This document shows, in pieces, positions 2,564 through 5,967 of a DNA stretch of 5,967 nucleotides. Both the position numbers and the translations under genes were made by a program. Source of the DNA: a virus (Duplodnaviria > Heunggongvirae > Uroviricota > Caudoviricetes); the IMG/VR virus record IMGVR_UViG_2623620506_000002, positions 1 through 5,967 of that record, one strand, 5' to 3'. Position 1 is the stretch's first letter, and every line of letters begins with the position of its first letter. The notes below the pieces were generated by a model. It did not search any database. It was not told where the DNA came from and saw nothing but the letters and a program-made list of their open reading frames with translations.

Positions 2564-3274
2564 TTACGTGCCCTGCAACGCGCGCAGTCTTGCGGCAATG
2601 CGCTGGCGCAGGGTTTTCACCTGAATTTTTGGATGCAGCCAGGCAGCCTGTTCCAGACACTGGTCGGCCTGTTGCAGTCTCTCCGGATCGTTAATTGCAC
2701 TGGCCAGCGGTTTACCGTCATCGCCGCGCAGCAGCAGGACGCCTGCAAAGCGCCAGTAGCGGGCAGCAAGGCGTTCATTCACGCGCCATTTGTCACGGAT
2801 TTTTTCAAACACCTGCTGAAAATATGGCGCGATACTGTTCCCACGTTCAGCTTCGGTTTCTGCCCATTCAAGAATGAAATGGACCACAAACGTTGGCAGC
2901 TCGCTTTTGAAGTTCTCCGGCGTCTTTTGCCCCTGCTCAATGGCAATGTCAGCCCACTGCAGCGCCATCTCAAACTGCCCGGTATCGAACAGCCAGATGA
3001 TGCAGTACACCAGAATGGGATTCTGATAGACGCGTTCCCCCTCCAGATAAGCCTGTGCGTGTGGCAGCCAGCGGGGCAGCAGCGTGTTCCGTTTGAATTC
3101 CAGCTTGTCAGACAGCAGCTCCATGTTGTGCAGTTGTCTGATGTCATTATCCAGTGCCATCAGCTTAATGTGCTGACTCTCTGTGCTGATGGCGCTCCCG
3201 TCCGTTCTGGTCATGAGCGCCGCACGGCGCTCATCCATCTGTCGGGCACGTTGTCGCTGCATTGGCGTTGGCAT
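2564..3274 (-). CDS. Phage terminase small (endonuclease) subunit, P2 gpM-like
   Basis: 236-aa ORF starting 17 nt after the capsid gene stop, with GGAG upstream. The N-terminus (MPTPMQRQRARQM) and internal LLPRWLP and LLRGDDG segments resemble P2 gpM as recalled, and the position after the capsid gene fits. Confidence 0.85.
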   Translation of the reverse strand: MPTPMQRQRARQMDERRAALMTRTDGSAISTESQHIKLMALDNDIRQLHNMELLSDKLEFKRNTLLPRWLPHAQAYLEGERVYQNPILVYCIIWLFDTGQFEMALQWADIAIEQGQKTPENFKSELPTFVVHFILEWAETEAERGNSIAPYFQQVFEKIRDKWRVNERLAARYWRFAGVLLLRGDDGKPLASAINDPERLQQADQCLEQAAWLHPKIQVKTLRQRIAARLRALQGT

Positions 3275-3291: not shown

Positions 3292-4305
3292 TCAGGCGAT
3301 GGTGACCGCAGACTCATCCACGGCAGCATATAAATCCGGATCGCCCAGGGCGTACCCCTCGTAACGCCAGTATGAGTTTTCGAACTGTTTGCGATCGCCC
3401 ACATCTTCCGCTTTACGACGGCGGGAACCCTTCAGCGTCAGGATCTGCAGGTTTGGCAGCATGGTCACCACCATACGTTTGCCCGGCATAAACGGCGGAA
3501 TGATGGCCTTGCGGCCTGCAATGTTCTTCGTCAGCAACTGTGCGGCCACTTTTTCGGTAGGCTTGTCCTCTTTGTTGTAGAGGCGCAGCTCCTCGGCGGC
3601 CACAAGGTCAGCACCAACCAGCACGGTAAGGCGTGGATCGTTGTGATACTGCGCCGGGATGTAAGTGCGGATCAGATCGGACGCCATGGCATCCAGCCCC
3701 ACGTAATCGCCGCCGTCACCCAGGGTAACGGCGTCTGTCAGAATACGGGAGGTATTGCCTGGCTGTTCTCCCCACTTACGGGCGATTTCATGCCAGCCGA
3801 TGTTGACGTCTTCGCCGTTCGGGTGACTTTCCGGGTCAGAGTTTTCCGCTGCTGTTTTACCGTTAAAGCCAATGCGCAGCATATCCAGCGCAAAGTTGGT
3901 GACGGCGGCGGAGTTCATCAGGTTGAAAAATTCCTGCGGGCTGCCGGCATTCGCCCAGATGGCGAGTTGTTCCCAGGTGATCACGCAGCAGGAATCAGTT
4001 TCAACGAGTTTAAATTCGTTGCCTTTGATGCCCGAACCTTTAGCGAAACGACCGCTTTTCACGCGACCGGTGCGCAGTGTGGATTCGCCCACGGTGACGA
4101 CCTGCCCCTGCGGGTGCGGAACGTCCATGCAGGTGATGAAATTCAGAAACTCCGTGCTTTCCAGCAGGGCTTTACGCAGAGCAATACTGCGTGGCTCGGT
4201 CAGCGAAAAGAAACGATCGCTTGATTTCCCGCAGTCACTGAATGTTTTTTGCAGTTCGCTGATGTACTGATTAACCAGCTTTTGTGCTTCTGGTGTCATG
4301 TTCAT
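3292..4305 (-). CDS. Phage major capsid protein, P2 gpN family
   Basis: 337-aa ORF with GGAGAG SD 7 nt upstream of the ATG at 4305. Conserved blocks (GFNGKTAAENSD, IGWHEI, GGDYVGLDA, DPRLTVLVGADLVA) agree with the P2 gpN family as recalled. It lies directly downstream of the scaffold gene. Confidence 0.9.
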   Translation of the reverse strand: MNMTPEAQKLVNQYISELQKTFSDCGKSSDRFFSLTEPRSIALRKALLESTEFLNFITCMDVPHPQGQVVTVGESTLRTGRVKSGRFAKGSGIKGNEFKLVETDSCCVITWEQLAIWANAGSPQEFFNLMNSAAVTNFALDMLRIGFNGKTAAENSDPESHPNGEDVNIGWHEIARKWGEQPGNTSRILTDAVTLGDGGDYVGLDAMASDLIRTYIPAQYHNDPRLTVLVGADLVAAEELRLYNKEDKPTEKVAAQLLTKNIAGRKAIIPPFMPGKRMVVTMLPNLQILTLKGSRRRKAEDVGDRKQFENSYWRYEGYALGDPDLYAAVDESAVTIA

Positions 4306-4319
4306 TGAGTTCTCTCCGG

Positions 4320-5210
4320 TTACACCAGGTTAAAAGTTTCGCCACCGGCCGGATTGTTGCCCGGCAGCTTCGTGGCGTCCTTGCTGAGTTCAGCAAATGC
4401 GGTTTCCATACTGGTAACCTTCTCCGCGATGGCGTTCACTGTGGAGAACAGCTTTTCGCCCTGCTCGGTGGTCAGCGTGAAGGTTTTGTCGTCCTTGTTG
4501 TTCTGTTCTGCGTTGTCCTGCCCCTGATCGCCGGTGCTGCCTTCCGGCTTGTTATCACCGGTATCTTTCGGGGCATCCTTCGCGCTGAACTGCGCGACGT
4601 TTTCTTCCAGTTTGTCCAGGCGTTCGCCGGTTTTGTTGATAGCGTCCATCAACTGGCCGAACTGTTTTTCGTTCATATCGTTTTCCTGTTTGTTGCGTCC
4701 CACGGAGAAAAGGCCGGAAAAGAAACTGCGTTTGGCCTGCTCGTCGTCAGACTGCAGCGTGAAATTCAGTTCTTCTGCATTCCCCATGTGAATGGAATCT
4801 CCCTGCGAAAATTGCAGGCGGGTGGTGTTGATGCTGGCCGGTGTGTCAGTCACAGCGATACCGGATACAAAGAATTTGCCTGTTCCCAGGTAGTTTTCCT
4901 TTACCTCTATGGAGGTGAAAAGTTTTTGTCCAGCCTCGTTGGCTTCGGTCAGAAAGCGGTTGGGTATCAGGCGGGCTTTCAGCTGCACTTTATCACCGAC
5001 TTTTTCCGCCTTCAGTGCATCAACAAGACCATAGTTATTGGTGAAAGCACGCCAGCCGGCGCTGGCATGAAACGGCCAGAGCATGGCGGTGTGTTCGTCC
5101 GGGTTATAAACCTCGGCGGCATCCGTCAGCCACTTTGGATCAATTTCCCGACCGTCGATGGTGGGGCCTGAAGTGGCTACGACCACCCAGTCTGTTTTCA
5201 GTTTCGACAT
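4320..5210 (-). CDS. Phage capsid scaffolding protein, P2 gpO family
   Basis: 296-aa ORF. The N-terminus (MSKLKTDWVVVATSGPTIDGREI...VDALKAEKV...IAVTDTPAS) resembles P2 gpO as recalled, and the C-terminal half is a polar, acidic low-complexity segment typical of scaffolding proteins. It is the first gene of the minus-strand operon, divergent from the terminase ATPase gene. Confidence 0.9.
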   Translation of the reverse strand: MSKLKTDWVVVATSGPTIDGREIDPKWLTDAAEVYNPDEHTAMLWPFHASAGWRAFTNNYGLVDALKAEKVGDKVQLKARLIPNRFLTEANEAGQKLFTSIEVKENYLGTGKFFVSGIAVTDTPASINTTRLQFSQGDSIHMGNAEELNFTLQSDDEQAKRSFFSGLFSVGRNKQENDMNEKQFGQLMDAINKTGERLDKLEENVAQFSAKDAPKDTGDNKPEGSTGDQGQDNAEQNNKDDKTFTLTTEQGEKLFSTVNAIAEKVTSMETAFAELSKDATKLPGNNPAGGETFNLV

Positions 5211-5404
5211 CTGAATTAACCCGCTGATAAAAATTAAACTGGCGTTATTTAACGGAGAAATAAAAATGTCGTCATCTGATTAATTTCCGGTACTTTCGGA
5301 TATGCGTATATATCCGAAAAATACCGAAAAGCGATATTCGTTTTTAAAAAAGCCTTTGCTGAAAATGCATAAATTAAAATTGCATCAGCAGGTGAGGTTT
5401 ATTT
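5211..5404. promoter_or_regulatory. AT-rich divergent intergenic control region between the scaffold operon (minus) and the terminase ATPase operon (plus), presumed to carry the late promoters
   Basis: 194 bp that is visibly AT-rich against GC-rich flanking coding sequence, bounded by two divergent start codons. Contains a dyad-symmetric element and a candidate -10 hexamer TAAAAT at 5375-5380. No transcription start can be determined from sequence alone. Confidence 0.55.
5294..5319. repeat. Inverted repeat TTTCGGATAT-N6-ATATCCGAAA (perfect 10-bp arms); candidate regulator binding site
   Basis: Read directly from the sequence: 5294-5303 tttcggatat, spacer gcgtat, 5310-5319 atatccgaaa, which is the exact reverse complement of the left arm. 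Related TTCCGG (5285-5290) and CCGAAA (5324-5329) half-sites flank it. Confidence 0.6.
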
Positions 5405-5967
5405 ATGGCGTATTCTGATGAGGTGATTGCTGCTGCAAAATCGCTCTATCTGAAAAGACACACACCAAAAGAAATACAAAAGAAGCTCGGACTGAACAGC
5501 CCGCGAATTGTTTATTACTGGGCGACAAAGTTTGAGTGGTACACACAGCTTAATACTGAAGGCGTGGAAGATGTTATCGCCCGTCGTCTCGCTGTACTGG
5601 CGGAGCGTGATCATAAAACGCCGGAAGAGCACGATGAACTCGATCGCCTGATTGGTCATCACGTCAAACTGATGTCGGTCAGGAACAAGCACACGGAACG
5701 AATGGCCGAGATTGAACGAATGGGAGCGGATATTCCCCAGTCTGGTCGTTATGGAAAAGAAGAACGCGGAGAAAAAGGTGCAGGTAAGAAAGAGCGCCCC
5801 CGCAAAGCTAATGACGTTTCCGGACTGACTGCTGAAAGTTTTGAGCCGTTTACGAAAAAGTTGTTTGCTTATCAGTTGCATCTGCGTGAAAACAAATTCC
5901 GCCGTGTACGCAACCTGCTTAAATCCCGCCAGATTGGGGCGACGTATTACTTCGCGTTTGAGGCATT
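5405..5967 (+). CDS. Phage terminase ATPase (large) subunit, P2 gpP-like, N-terminal 187 codons (continues beyond window end)
   Basis: ATG at 5405 with GAGG SD about 9 nt upstream. Manual translation (MAYSDEVIAAAKSLYLKRHTPKEIQKKLGL...FRRVRNLLKSRQIGATYYFAFEA) shows no stop to the window end. The SRQIGATYYFA segment matches the conserved N-terminal region of P2-type terminase ATPase subunits as recalled, and the divergent placement relative to the scaffold gene is the P2 arrangement. It is absent from the ORF track only because it has no stop in the window. Confidence 0.85.
   Translation, partial: MAYSDEVIAAAKSLYLKRHTPKEIQKKLGLNSPRIVYYWATKFEWYTQLNTEGVEDVIARRLAVLAERDHKTPEEHDELDRLIGHHVKLMSVRNKHTERMAEIERMGADIPQSGRYGKEERGEKGAGKKERPRKANDVSGLTAESFEPFTKKLFAYQLHLRENKFRRVRNLLKSRQIGATYYFAFEA

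What the first reader, a model, noticed from the sequence alone, without database searches (positions are those of the whole stretch)
5285..5340. Helically phased array of TTYCGG / CCGAAA half-sites around the core dyad
Besides the core arms there are TTCCGG (5285-5290) 9 bp before the left arm start, CCGAAA (5324-5329) 10 bp after the right arm start, and a further degenerate copy gatattcg (5333-5340). That makes four or five half-sites at roughly one-helical-turn spacing, which suggests cooperative binding of more than one dimer rather than a chance palindrome.
Basis: seen in the sequence. Interest (0 to 1): 0.45.

Follow-up and report, generated by a model that had tools for sequence, protein, structure and literature searches.

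The report
Shared activator site of phage late promoters
The phased half-sites are real: four 10-bp-spaced copies of TTCGGATA, deeply conserved, sit midway between the two divergent late (head and packaging) promoters of a P2-like prophage, most likely as the docking array for the phage's Ogr-type zinc-finger activator.

Summary
In register, TTCCGGTA (5285-5292), TTCGGATA (5295-5302), TATCCGAA (5311-5318) and ATACCGAA (5321-5328) lie at -20, -10, +10 and +20 from a symmetry centre at 5306/5307. That is two direct repeats facing two inverted ones, on one face of the helix.

The window is the late region of a P2-like prophage of E. coli / E. albertii. The array lies in the middle of the 194-bp gap between the capsid-scaffold gene (gpO-like, minus strand) and the large terminase gene (gpP-like, plus strand).

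The same array occupies this position in HP1/K139-type phages of Vibrio, Aeromonas, Shewanella, Yersinia and Cronobacter, and in degenerate form in Haemophilus. Their gpO proteins are only 31-48% identical to the window's. The outer half-sites are conserved, not just the core.

-10-like hexamers start 55 bp from the centre on both sides. In two lineages that lack the outer half-sites, they start at 45 bp on both sides.

P2 and 186 have one annotated shared Ogr/B site at the same place, but with a different sequence. I infer that an Ogr-family protein (PF04606), encoded after the portal gene, binds the array; no binding experiment exists.

Verdict: a new variant of a known kind, of moderate interest.

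The parts
5285..5292 (+). Outer-left half-site TTCCGGTA, 6 of 8 matches to TTCGGATA, at -22..-15 from the symmetry centre
   Evidence: Sequence. Columns -22, -21, -20 and -18 are kept in 77-91% of 22 distant representatives. Outer-left is at least 4/5 in 61 of 66 motif-blind relatives.
5295..5302 (+). Inner-left half-site TTCGGATA; part of the 10-nt arm 5294-5303
   Evidence: Perfect inverted repeat I4. TTCGG is invariant in 14 of 14 representatives of the motif-blind sample.
5303..5310 (.). 8-bp spacer; the symmetry centre lies between 5306 and 5307; the sequence is free to vary
   Evidence: The central bases vary even among close relatives: GCGTAT, GTGTAT, ACGCAT, GCGCAT, GCACAT, CGGGCA. Columns -4..+4 carry little information.
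5311..5318 (+). Inner-right half-site TATCCGAA, the reverse complement of TTCGGATA
   Evidence: conserved in relatives.
5321..5328 (+). Outer-right half-site ATACCGAA; CCGAA lies at +18..+22
   Evidence: CCGAA is kept in 82-91% of 22 distant representatives. It is at least 4/5 in 55 of 66 motif-blind relatives.
5247..5252 (-). Predicted -10 hexamer of the leftward gpO-operon promoter: TTAAAT on the minus strand, at 55-60 bp from the centre. Predicted transcription start near 5240.
   Evidence: A TAnnnT-like hexamer starts at 55 on the left side in most lineages and in 64 of 66 motif-blind relatives. Inferred; no transcript data.
5270..5275 (-). Predicted -35-like element of the gpO promoter: ATGACG on the minus strand, 17-bp spacer to the -10
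   Evidence: CA at -34/-33 (5273-5274), which reads TG on the minus strand, is kept in 91% and 95% of distant representatives. Inferred.
5361..5366 (+). Predicted -10 hexamer of the rightward terminase-operon promoter: GAAAAT at +55..+60. Predicted transcription start near 5373.
   Evidence: This hexamer is kept (GAAAAT, GAGAAT, AATAAT) even where the downstream leader is replaced. A -10-like hexamer starts at +55/56 in most lineages. In K139-, YenM324- and L031-type phages the terminase ATG lies exactly 7 nt after it. Inferred.
5337..5342 (+). Weak -35-like TTCGTT, 18-bp spacer to the -10.
   Evidence: TTCGT is kept only in part of the close relatives; others have AATCGTT. There is no conservation in distant relatives.
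4320..5210 (-). GPO-family capsid scaffolding gene, first gene of the leftward late operon
   Evidence: ORF; RefSeq annotation of a 98% identical E. coli prophage.
5405..5967 (+). 5' part of the large terminase (gpP-like) gene, first gene of the rightward late operon. A Shine-Dalgarno sequence AGGTGAGG lies at 5390-5397.
   Evidence: Pfam PF06056 Terminase_5, E = 1.3e-10; annotation in L001.

Best explanation
The element is the cis-regulatory core of the two divergent late promoters of a P2-like (HP1/K139-type) prophage. Four copies of an 8-bp unit (consensus TTCGGATA) are spaced exactly 10 bp apart, two pointing right and two pointing left, and form a symmetric array on one face of the helix.

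I infer that the phage's Ogr/Delta-family zinc-finger protein occupies the array, probably one protomer per unit. That protein is encoded just after the portal gene in the rightward operon. The outermost protomer on each side would sit about 35 bp from the -10 hexamer, near -47. From there it would recruit RNA polymerase to both weak promoters at once: leftward for scaffold, capsid, small terminase and tail genes, and rightward for terminase, portal and ogr. This would follow the way P2 Ogr and 186 B act through the polymerase alpha subunit.

Shown: the array, its position, its conservation, the symmetric -10-like hexamers, and the shift of both hexamers where the outer sites are missing.

Inferred: the identity of the binding protein, the stoichiometry, activation rather than repression, and the exact transcription starts.
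For: Position:
- The symmetry centre at 5306/5307 lies 97 and 98 bp from the two start codons.
- The locus is a P2-like prophage with GPO scaffold, P2-family capsid, gpM, terminase, portal and an ogr/Delta-like gene.
- That gene product matches PF04606 at 9.4e-13 and has the CX2CX22CX4C motif.

Conservation:
- An exact-core scan of IMG/VR placed 66 of 80 hits between divergent gpO-like and terminase-like genes. Protein identity to the window was 31-48% (gpO) and 40-68% (terminase) in the distant lineages.
- All 11 hits in species-representative genomes are in the same context: Shewanella, Aeromonas, Vibrio cholerae, E. albertii.
- In the motif-blind sample, 66 of 67 unique upstream regions carry the array.
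- The array is present in K139, YenM324, ESSI-2 and phiO18P, and in degenerate form in HP1.

Promoter geometry:
- -10-like hexamers start 55 bp from the centre on both sides.
- In the two lineages without outer half-sites (L031/L057/L084, and L085), they start at 45 bp on both sides.
- In three lineages the terminase ATG lies exactly 7 nt after that hexamer. This fits leaderless mRNAs and fixes the start site there.

Precedent:
- The GenBank records of P2 and 186 annotate a single shared activator site between the homologous divergent promoters. It is centred 55-56 bp from both mapped starts in P2.

Phage-encoded rather than host factor:
- The array follows phage lineage across hosts and is absent from P2 and 186, which also infect E. 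coli.

Candidate binder:
- An Ogr-like ORF with a well-conserved sequence was found in 40 of the fetched loci, nearly all of them array-bearing.

DNA site rather than RNA hairpin:
- The arms are conserved in sequence, and the variable columns show no compensatory pairing; position 19 pairs in only 27%.
Against: - No binding, footprint or transcript data exist for this phage group in what I could search.
- The array sequence does not match the P2-type Ogr consensus TGT-N12-ACA, and no such site lies in the intergenic region.
- Only one array exists per genome, whereas P2 has four Ogr-dependent promoters. So the motif cannot be cross-validated on other late promoters within the same phage.
- Pseudomonas and Burkholderia phages have Ogr-like proteins 34-40% identical to this one, yet the two Pseudomonas phages I examined (phiCTX, phi3) lack the array. 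Protein family alone therefore does not predict the site.
- The link between array size and promoter offset rests on only two independent lineages.
- The simple sigma-70 scan found no promoter at its threshold. That is expected for activator-dependent promoters, but the -10 assignments remain predictions.
Confidence: 0.72

Rival explanations
1. The array is an operator for a repressor, phage or host encoded. The repressor would keep both late promoters silent in the lysogen or early in infection by coating the inter-promoter region.
For: Symmetric multi-site arrays between divergent promoters are also typical of repressors. The left promoter has a recognisable -35 TG and a 17-bp spacer, so it might have basal activity that needs silencing.
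Against: The half-sites lie upstream of both -35 positions, spanning about -45 to -89, and do not overlap the -35 or -10. The immunity and switch genes of these phages are mosaic and non-homologous, while the array is invariant; compare the different regulators in K139 and L001. The homologous position in P2 and 186 is an activator site. The promoter offset follows the outermost half-site at a fixed 35 bp, as expected for an upstream-bound (class I-type) activator.
Confidence: 0.1
2. The array is bound by another conserved phage protein rather than the Ogr-like factor. Candidates are the N-terminal helix-turn-helix domain of the large terminase (PF06056) or the small terminase gpM, acting in autoregulation or in a packaging-related role.
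For: The terminase N-terminal domain is strongly conserved in all array-bearing phages and is encoded immediately next to the array. The 186 record notes a putative helix-turn-helix motif in the homologous protein.
Against: The 186 homologue is annotated with the same kind of helix-turn-helix motif, and I expect P2 gpP to carry the domain too (not scanned here). Yet P2 and 186 lack the array. In HP1 the array lies about 13.7 kb inside a linear genome record, so it does not coincide with the record's ends, where I expect the cos site. No terminase is known to me to act as a promoter-specific regulator.
Confidence: 0.08
3. A conserved host transcription factor of Gammaproteobacteria binds the array, tying late gene expression to host physiology.
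For: Direct repeats at 10-bp spacing resemble sites of response regulators of the OmpR/PhoB type. The hosts are all Gammaproteobacteria.
Against: All 11 occurrences of the 34-nt pattern in 185,579 species genomes are in P2-like prophages and none in host promoters. P2 and 186 in the same host lack it. The unit does not match any host factor consensus I could recall; that is memory, not a test.
Confidence: 0.05
4. The palindrome acts as an RNA or DNA hairpin, for example an attenuator, a processing site or a cruciform, rather than as a protein-binding site.
For: Either strand would fold well as RNA: -18.3 and -23 kcal/mol, z = -4.2 and -6.2.
Against: Any palindrome folds this way. The arms are conserved in sequence, not merely in complementarity. 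Variable columns pair at about the random level, 27-50% Watson-Crick. No terminator-like site and no Rfam match was found. The element lies upstream of both predicted transcription starts.
Confidence: 0.03

Closest known systems
Shared Ogr-dependent activator site of the divergent P2 late promoters pP and pO (GenBank AF063097, feature 3057-3087)
   Same: One site lies between the homologous divergent operons (terminase/portal versus scaffold/capsid). It is symmetric about the midpoint of the two start sites. An Ogr-family zinc-finger gene is in the same genome. The inner dyad can be written GGA-N12-TCC, the same 18-bp geometry as TGT-N12-ACA. Lineages with only two half-sites would place the centre near -56, like P2's -55/-56.
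   Different: The recognition sequence is TTCGGATA-N8-TATCCGAA, not TGT-N12-ACA. There are four half-sites instead of two. The predicted centre is about -66.5, one helical turn further out. There is one array per genome instead of four late promoters. The ogr-like gene follows the portal gene instead of lying near int.
B-protein binding site of coliphage 186 between p12 and pV (NC_001317, protein_bind 3798-3817)
   Same: It is annotated as a single site that activates both divergent promoters of the terminase and scaffold operons.
   Different: The sequence differs (GTTGTGTGGGCGGTTGTCCA). It is 20 bp long against about 44 bp here, and has no phased outer repeats.
Intergenic region orf16/orf17 of Vibrio phage K139 (AF125163) and its zinc-finger protein Orf13
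   Same: K139 carries the same array (gTTCGGgtgaaTTCGGATAT-N6-ATATCCGAAattggCGGAA) between the same genes. It also has a homologous Ogr-like protein, 46% identical.
   Different: The K139 record annotates only putative sigma-70 hexamers there, some lying inside the half-sites, and no activator site. The terminase mRNA appears leaderless in K139 but has a 32-nt leader with a Shine-Dalgarno sequence in the window.
P4 delta protein, a covalent tandem of two Ogr-like domains, acting at P2/P4 late promoters (Julien and Calendar 1995, as cited in PMC3931495)
   Same: It is a precedent for more than two Ogr-type domains engaging one late promoter region.
   Different: In P4 the multiplicity is in the protein; here it is in the DNA array. 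This comparison rests on my knowledge of the literature and was not tested here.

Membership tests
Ogr/Delta/B-dependent late promoters of P2-like phages | Located upstream of the late morphogenetic operons, here the divergent P (terminase) and O (scaffold) operons | tested here: met
   The array lies between the gpO-like gene (4320-5210, minus strand) and the terminase gene (from 5405, plus strand). The position is the same as the annotated sites in P2 and 186.
Ogr/Delta/B-dependent late promoters of P2-like phages | An Ogr/Delta-family zinc-finger activator (PF04606, CX2CX22CX4C) is encoded by the same element | tested here: met
   L001 28285-28542 matches PF04606 at E = 9.4e-13 and has the motif. 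Homologues were found in 40 of the fetched loci, nearly all array-bearing.
Ogr/Delta/B-dependent late promoters of P2-like phages | A region of dyad symmetry with consensus TGT-N12-ACA | tested here: not met
   There is no TGT-N12-ACA in 5211-5404, and the ten copies in the prophage locus are at chance level. The dyad here is TTCGGATA-N8-TATCCGAA. Only the 18-bp geometry (GGA-N12-TCC) is comparable.
Ogr/Delta/B-dependent late promoters of P2-like phages | The dyad is centred near -55 from the transcription start | tested here: inconclusive
   No start sites are mapped. From the conserved -10-like hexamers, the centre would be about -66.5 in four-site lineages, including the window, and about -56.5 in two-site lineages.
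Ogr/Delta/B-dependent late promoters of P2-like phages | Poor or absent -35 element, with transcription dependent on the activator and on the RNA polymerase alpha subunit | not testable with these tools
   The simple sigma-70 scan finds no promoter. The rightward promoter has only TTCGTT at the -35 position; the leftward one has ATGACG. Dependence on the activator needs an experiment.
Ogr/Delta/B-dependent late promoters of P2-like phages | The same activator motif recurs at every late promoter of the phage (four in P2) | tested here: not met
   There is only one array in L001 and one in K139. The late genes of K139 form one long cluster ending at terminator T39, so a single divergent promoter pair may be enough.
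Intrinsic terminator or structured RNA | A stem followed by a T-run, or covarying base pairs | tested here: not met
   No terminator-like site, no Rfam match above noise, and no compensatory changes.

The most novel reading that the evidence does not exclude
Ogr-type zinc-finger activators of the HP1/K139 branch recognise a 10-bp repeating unit (TTCGGATA) as single protomers and assemble head-to-tail and head-to-head into an expandable bidirectional array of two, four or five units. Promoters co-evolve so that the -10 stays about 35 bp from the outermost unit. A whole helical turn, with a leaderless start codon attached, is therefore gained or lost together with a repeat. Because ogr lies in the rightward operon, the array would also close a positive feedback loop that commits the phage to late expression.
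Probability: 0.3. Interest if true: 0.6.

Novelty: new variant of a known kind. Interest (0 to 1): 0.45.

Why it matters
Late-gene activation in P2-like phages is a textbook case of a small zinc-finger activator working through the polymerase alpha subunit. The known site (TGT-N12-ACA) comes from the P2/186/P4 branch.

This element gives a precise, testable candidate site for the large HP1/K139/phiO18P branch, which is common as prophages in Vibrio, Aeromonas, Shewanella, Haemophilus and enterobacteria. It shows that the site differs in both sequence and number of half-sites.

Three practical uses follow:
- It predicts the late promoters in these prophages and can correct annotations, such as the phiO18P scaffold start and the K139 promoter hexamers.
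- It offers a natural series of two-, four- and five-unit arrays for studying how activator multiplicity and promoter distance co-vary.
- It provides a compact bidirectional, activator-dependent promoter cassette.

Tried and rejected
- Megablast of the whole window against the phage collection found nothing. The context came from E. coli genomes instead.
- No second copy of the array, and no pairs of half-sites, turned up at other intergenic gaps of the prophage or in K139. The motif could not be cross-checked on other late promoters.
- TGT-N12-ACA is absent from the intergenic region and at chance level in the locus.
- The simple sigma-70 and terminator scan found nothing.
- Full-text searches for the 8-mers gave only unrelated primer hits. 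Searches on Ogr, late promoters, K139 and HP1 found no description of this array. The K139 genome paper is not held, so I cannot exclude that it mentions the repeat.
- The K139 record's putative promoter hexamers were checked and look unconvincing; for example, TTTCGG is given as a -10.
- I compared Ogr-like proteins of two-site and four-site lineages for a length or C-terminal difference and found none. No Ogr-like ORF was found in the fetched part of L085.
- The RNA hairpin reading was rejected.
- The ParM/ParR centromere, Rrf2 and MarR regulators of the prophage were set aside. Those genes are not shared by K139 and other array-bearing phages.

Full report
**1. What is in the sequence**

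- TTCCGG lies at 5285-5290.
- The perfect 10-nt arms are TTTCGGATAT (5294-5303) and ATATCCGAAA (5310-5319), separated by 6 nt.
- CCGAAA lies at 5324-5329 and gatattcg at 5333-5340.

Read in register as 8-mers, the four units are TTCCGGTA (5285-5292), TTCGGATA (5295-5302), TATCCGAA (5311-5318) and ATACCGAA (5321-5328). Their centres lie at -20, -10, +10 and +20 from a symmetry centre between 5306 and 5307. The spacing is therefore exactly 10 bp on both sides. Two direct repeats face two inverted ones, and all four lie on one face of the helix.

Four TTYCGG/CCGRAA sites within 45 bp never appeared in 5000 first-order Markov simulations of the window; the largest cluster was three, in 76 runs. 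The full dyad is unique in the 46-kb prophage locus.

**2. Context**

The window is 95-98% identical to prophages in 41 complete E. coli genomes. Over the 150-bp region compared, it is identical to an Escherichia albertii contig.

In the annotated copy (L001) the prophage lies between raiA and pheA. Its late region has a P2-family head module: GPO scaffold, P2-family major capsid, gpM small terminase and head completion protein. Tail genes follow on the same strand. On the other strand come the large terminase, the portal and an ogr/Delta-like zinc-finger gene.

In window coordinates, the scaffold gene is 4320-5210 on the minus strand. The terminase gene starts at 5405 on the plus strand and matches PF06056.

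The array sits in the middle of the 194-bp divergent intergenic region, 97 and 98 bp from the two start codons.

**3. Conservation**

I used three samples.

*Close relatives found through the scaffold protein* (60-100% identity):
- The inner arms are invariant, while the spacer changes freely.
- The bases between inner and outer units also change.
- The outer units are kept with few exceptions.

*An exact scan of IMG/VR for TTCGGATA-N8-TATCCGAA*:
- It returned 80 loci, and 66 lie between divergent scaffold-like and terminase-like genes.
- In the distant lineages the proteins are only 31-48% (scaffold) and 40-68% (terminase) identical to the window's.
- I anchored 22 representatives, less than 75% identical over 200 nt, on the dyad centre.
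- The outer-right CCGAA (+18..+22) is kept in 82-91% of them.
- The outer-left TTCnG (-22..-18) is kept in 77-91%. The search pattern imposed neither.

*A motif-blind sample retrieved through the terminase N-terminal domain*:
- 66 of 67 unique upstream regions carry the array.
- 60 of them have at most 2 mismatches in the 16 core positions.
- Outer-right is at least 4/5 in 55 of 66, and outer-left in 61 of 66.

A 34-nt pattern (core plus one outer CCGAA) hit 11 places in species-representative genomes. All are in the same gene context, in Shewanella, Aeromonas, Vibrio cholerae and E. albertii.

Among named phages:
- K139 has a perfect array.
- YenM324, ESSI-2 and phiO18P have slightly degenerate ones.
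- SW3 and F108 have more degenerate ones.
- HP1 has five phased GGATA-containing units, three on the left and two on the right.
- P2, 186, phiCTX and Pseudomonas phage phi3 lack the array.

That criterion is not fulfilled.

The fifth copy fails:
- It is out of register with the 10-bp repeat.
- It changes to GATAATCG in close relatives.
- It carries little information in distant ones.
- It overlaps a lineage-specific -35-like TTCGTT.

**4. Promoter geometry**

Outside the array, the anchored alignments show three conserved features.
- A TAnnnT-like hexamer lies at +55..+60 on the plus strand. In the window this is GAAAAT, 5361-5366.
- A mirror-image hexamer lies at 55-60 on the minus strand. 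In the window this is TTAAAT, 5252-5247.
- CA at -34/-33 (5273-5274) is kept in 91% and 95%. On the minus strand it is the TG of a -35-like ATGACG, 17 bp from the left -10.

The best -10-like hexamer starts at 55 or 56 on both sides in nearly all lineages. This predicts starts near 5373 (plus strand) and 5240 (minus strand), with leaders of about 32 and 30 nt. The array centre would then lie near -66.5 from both starts, and the outer units near -47.

Two observations support these assignments.
- In K139-type, YenM324/ESSI-2/SW3-type and L031-type phages, the conserved terminase start codon (MAY.../MAKY...) lies exactly 7 nt after this hexamer. That is what a leaderless mRNA requires, and the start cannot lie further downstream.
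- The two lineages that lack recognisable outer units (L031/L057/L084, and L085) have their best hexamers at 45 on both sides. The distance from the outermost unit to the -10 stays at 35 bp.

Counting each side of each sequence, units with at least 4/5 matches go with a hexamer at 55 in 83 of 84 cases. Units with at most 3/5 matches go with a hexamer at 45 in 9 of 14. The exceptions, L046 and L080, keep the TATCC part of the unit. Only two independent lineages carry the two-unit form, so this coupling is suggestive rather than proven.

**5. What it most likely is**

The GenBank records of P2 and 186 each annotate a single shared activator site between the homologous divergent promoters.
- In P2 the site is 3057-3087, with mapped starts at 3016 and 3127. 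Its centre is 55-56 bp from both.
- In 186 the B-protein site is 3798-3817, between p12 and pV.

The window's prophage encodes an 85-aa PF04606 protein with the CX2CX22CX4C motif. Homologues were found in 40 of the fetched loci, nearly all of them array-bearing. They are well conserved: MRVxCxxCG...KTNR...ADLYCxC...CGHTFV...SHTLSPSA. K139 Orf13 is one of them.

The best explanation is that the array is the positional and functional counterpart of the P2/186 Ogr/B site. It has a different recognition sequence, twice as many half-sites, and promoters displaced by one helical turn.

The inner dyad can be written GGA-N12-TCC, the same 18-bp geometry as TGT-N12-ACA. The two-unit lineages would place their centre near -56, as in P2.

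The array follows phage lineage across hosts and is missing from P2 and 186 in E. coli. This points to a phage-encoded factor rather than a host factor.

The binding protein, its stoichiometry and the direction of regulation are all inferred.

**6. Rivals**

- *Repressor operator.* The sites lie upstream of both -35 positions, and the immunity regions of these phages are mosaic while the array is invariant. This reading is unlikely.
- *Terminase helix-turn-helix domain or gpM as the binder.* The 186 homologue carries a similar motif, yet 186 and P2 have no array. In HP1 the array lies far from the ends of the linear genome record. This reading is disfavoured.
- *RNA hairpin.* The arms are conserved in sequence. 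Variable columns pair at about the random level. No terminator or Rfam family fits. This reading is rejected.
- *Chance palindrome.* The statistics and the conservation exclude it.

**7. Membership and novelty**

For the family of Ogr-dependent P2 late promoters:
- The context and activator-gene criteria are met.
- The consensus-sequence criterion (TGT-N12-ACA) is tested and not met.
- The -55 position is inconclusive; I predict about -66 here.
- Recurrence at several late promoters is not met, since there is one array per genome.

I therefore describe the element as working like the P2/186 shared activator site, but as a distinct variant.

I found no description of this array in the searchable literature. 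The K139 record annotates only putative sigma-70 hexamers in the region. The K139 genome paper itself was not available.

The finding is a solid and useful regulatory motif for a widespread prophage group. It adds an interesting case of array expansion coupled to promoter displacement, but it is not a new kind of system.

Noticed in passing
L038/L108 (K139 type), L110 (YenM324), L109 (ESSI-2), L124 (SW3), L031/L057/L084: The conserved terminase start codon lies exactly 7 nt after the -10-like hexamer, at +68 from the centre, or +57 in two-unit lineages. The terminase mRNA is therefore probably leaderless in these phages. The window's lineage instead has a leader of about 32 nt with a Shine-Dalgarno sequence (5390-5397).
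   Followed up: partly
L111 (phiO18P, DQ674738) locus 1098-1122 and the gpO CDS start at 1109: The annotated start codon of the phiO18P scaffold gene lies inside the array (TTCGGATCCATC|AGGAAATCCGAA). The start is probably mis-annotated and the true one lies further downstream.
   Followed up: partly
L112 (K139, AF125163) 15488-15562: The record's putative P16/P17 hexamers fall on or next to the half-sites and do not resemble sigma-70 hexamers; for example, TTTCGG is given as the -10. The coordinates may have shifted between record versions.
   Followed up: partly
Relatives L006, L008, L010-L012 and L014 (= L058, L062, L063, L089), aligned to window 5343-5404: An alternative terminase leader replaces the window's leader from just after the array. 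It is up to 36 bp longer and contains a tandem 10-bp repeat, TTACGGAACG TTACGGAACG, followed by AACCGGAAAAAG. The -10-like AATAAT stays at +55. The function of this second repeat is unknown.
   Followed up: no
L107 (HP1) 1026-1079; L129 (F108) intergenic 3697-3900: HP1 has five phased units: TTTGGATA, GTAGGATA and GGCGGATA on the left, TATCCGAA and TATCCAAA on the right. F108 keeps three phased CGGnTAT units on one side only. The number and symmetry of units vary in the Pasteurellaceae phages.
   Followed up: partly
L001 28285-28542, just downstream of window-homologous region: The ogr-like gene follows the portal gene after a 66-bp gap on the same strand as the terminase operon. It may therefore be co-transcribed from the promoter it is proposed to activate, which would give positive feedback. 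In P2, ogr lies elsewhere (near int).
   Followed up: no
window, whole length: TTYCGG is over-represented across the whole window: 18 matches against 8.15 expected, with 0 of 200 shuffles reaching 18. Most copies lie inside coding sequence, so this is probably a codon or dipeptide effect.
   Followed up: no
window 5223-5233 (CTGATAAAAAT) in the predicted gpO leader: This stretch is almost invariant among relatives down to 60% scaffold identity. It may be a leader or translation-initiation element of the scaffold gene.
   Followed up: no
L001 28611-30562: Next to the late region, this P2-like prophage carries an Rrf2-family regulator and a ParM / plasmid-partition pair. That is unusual cargo for an integrated P2-like phage.
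   Followed up: no
window 5399-5881 minus strand; 4284-5171 plus strand: Long ORFs lie antisense to the terminase and scaffold genes (160 and 295 aa). They are unannotated in RefSeq copies and are most likely spurious.
   Followed up: no
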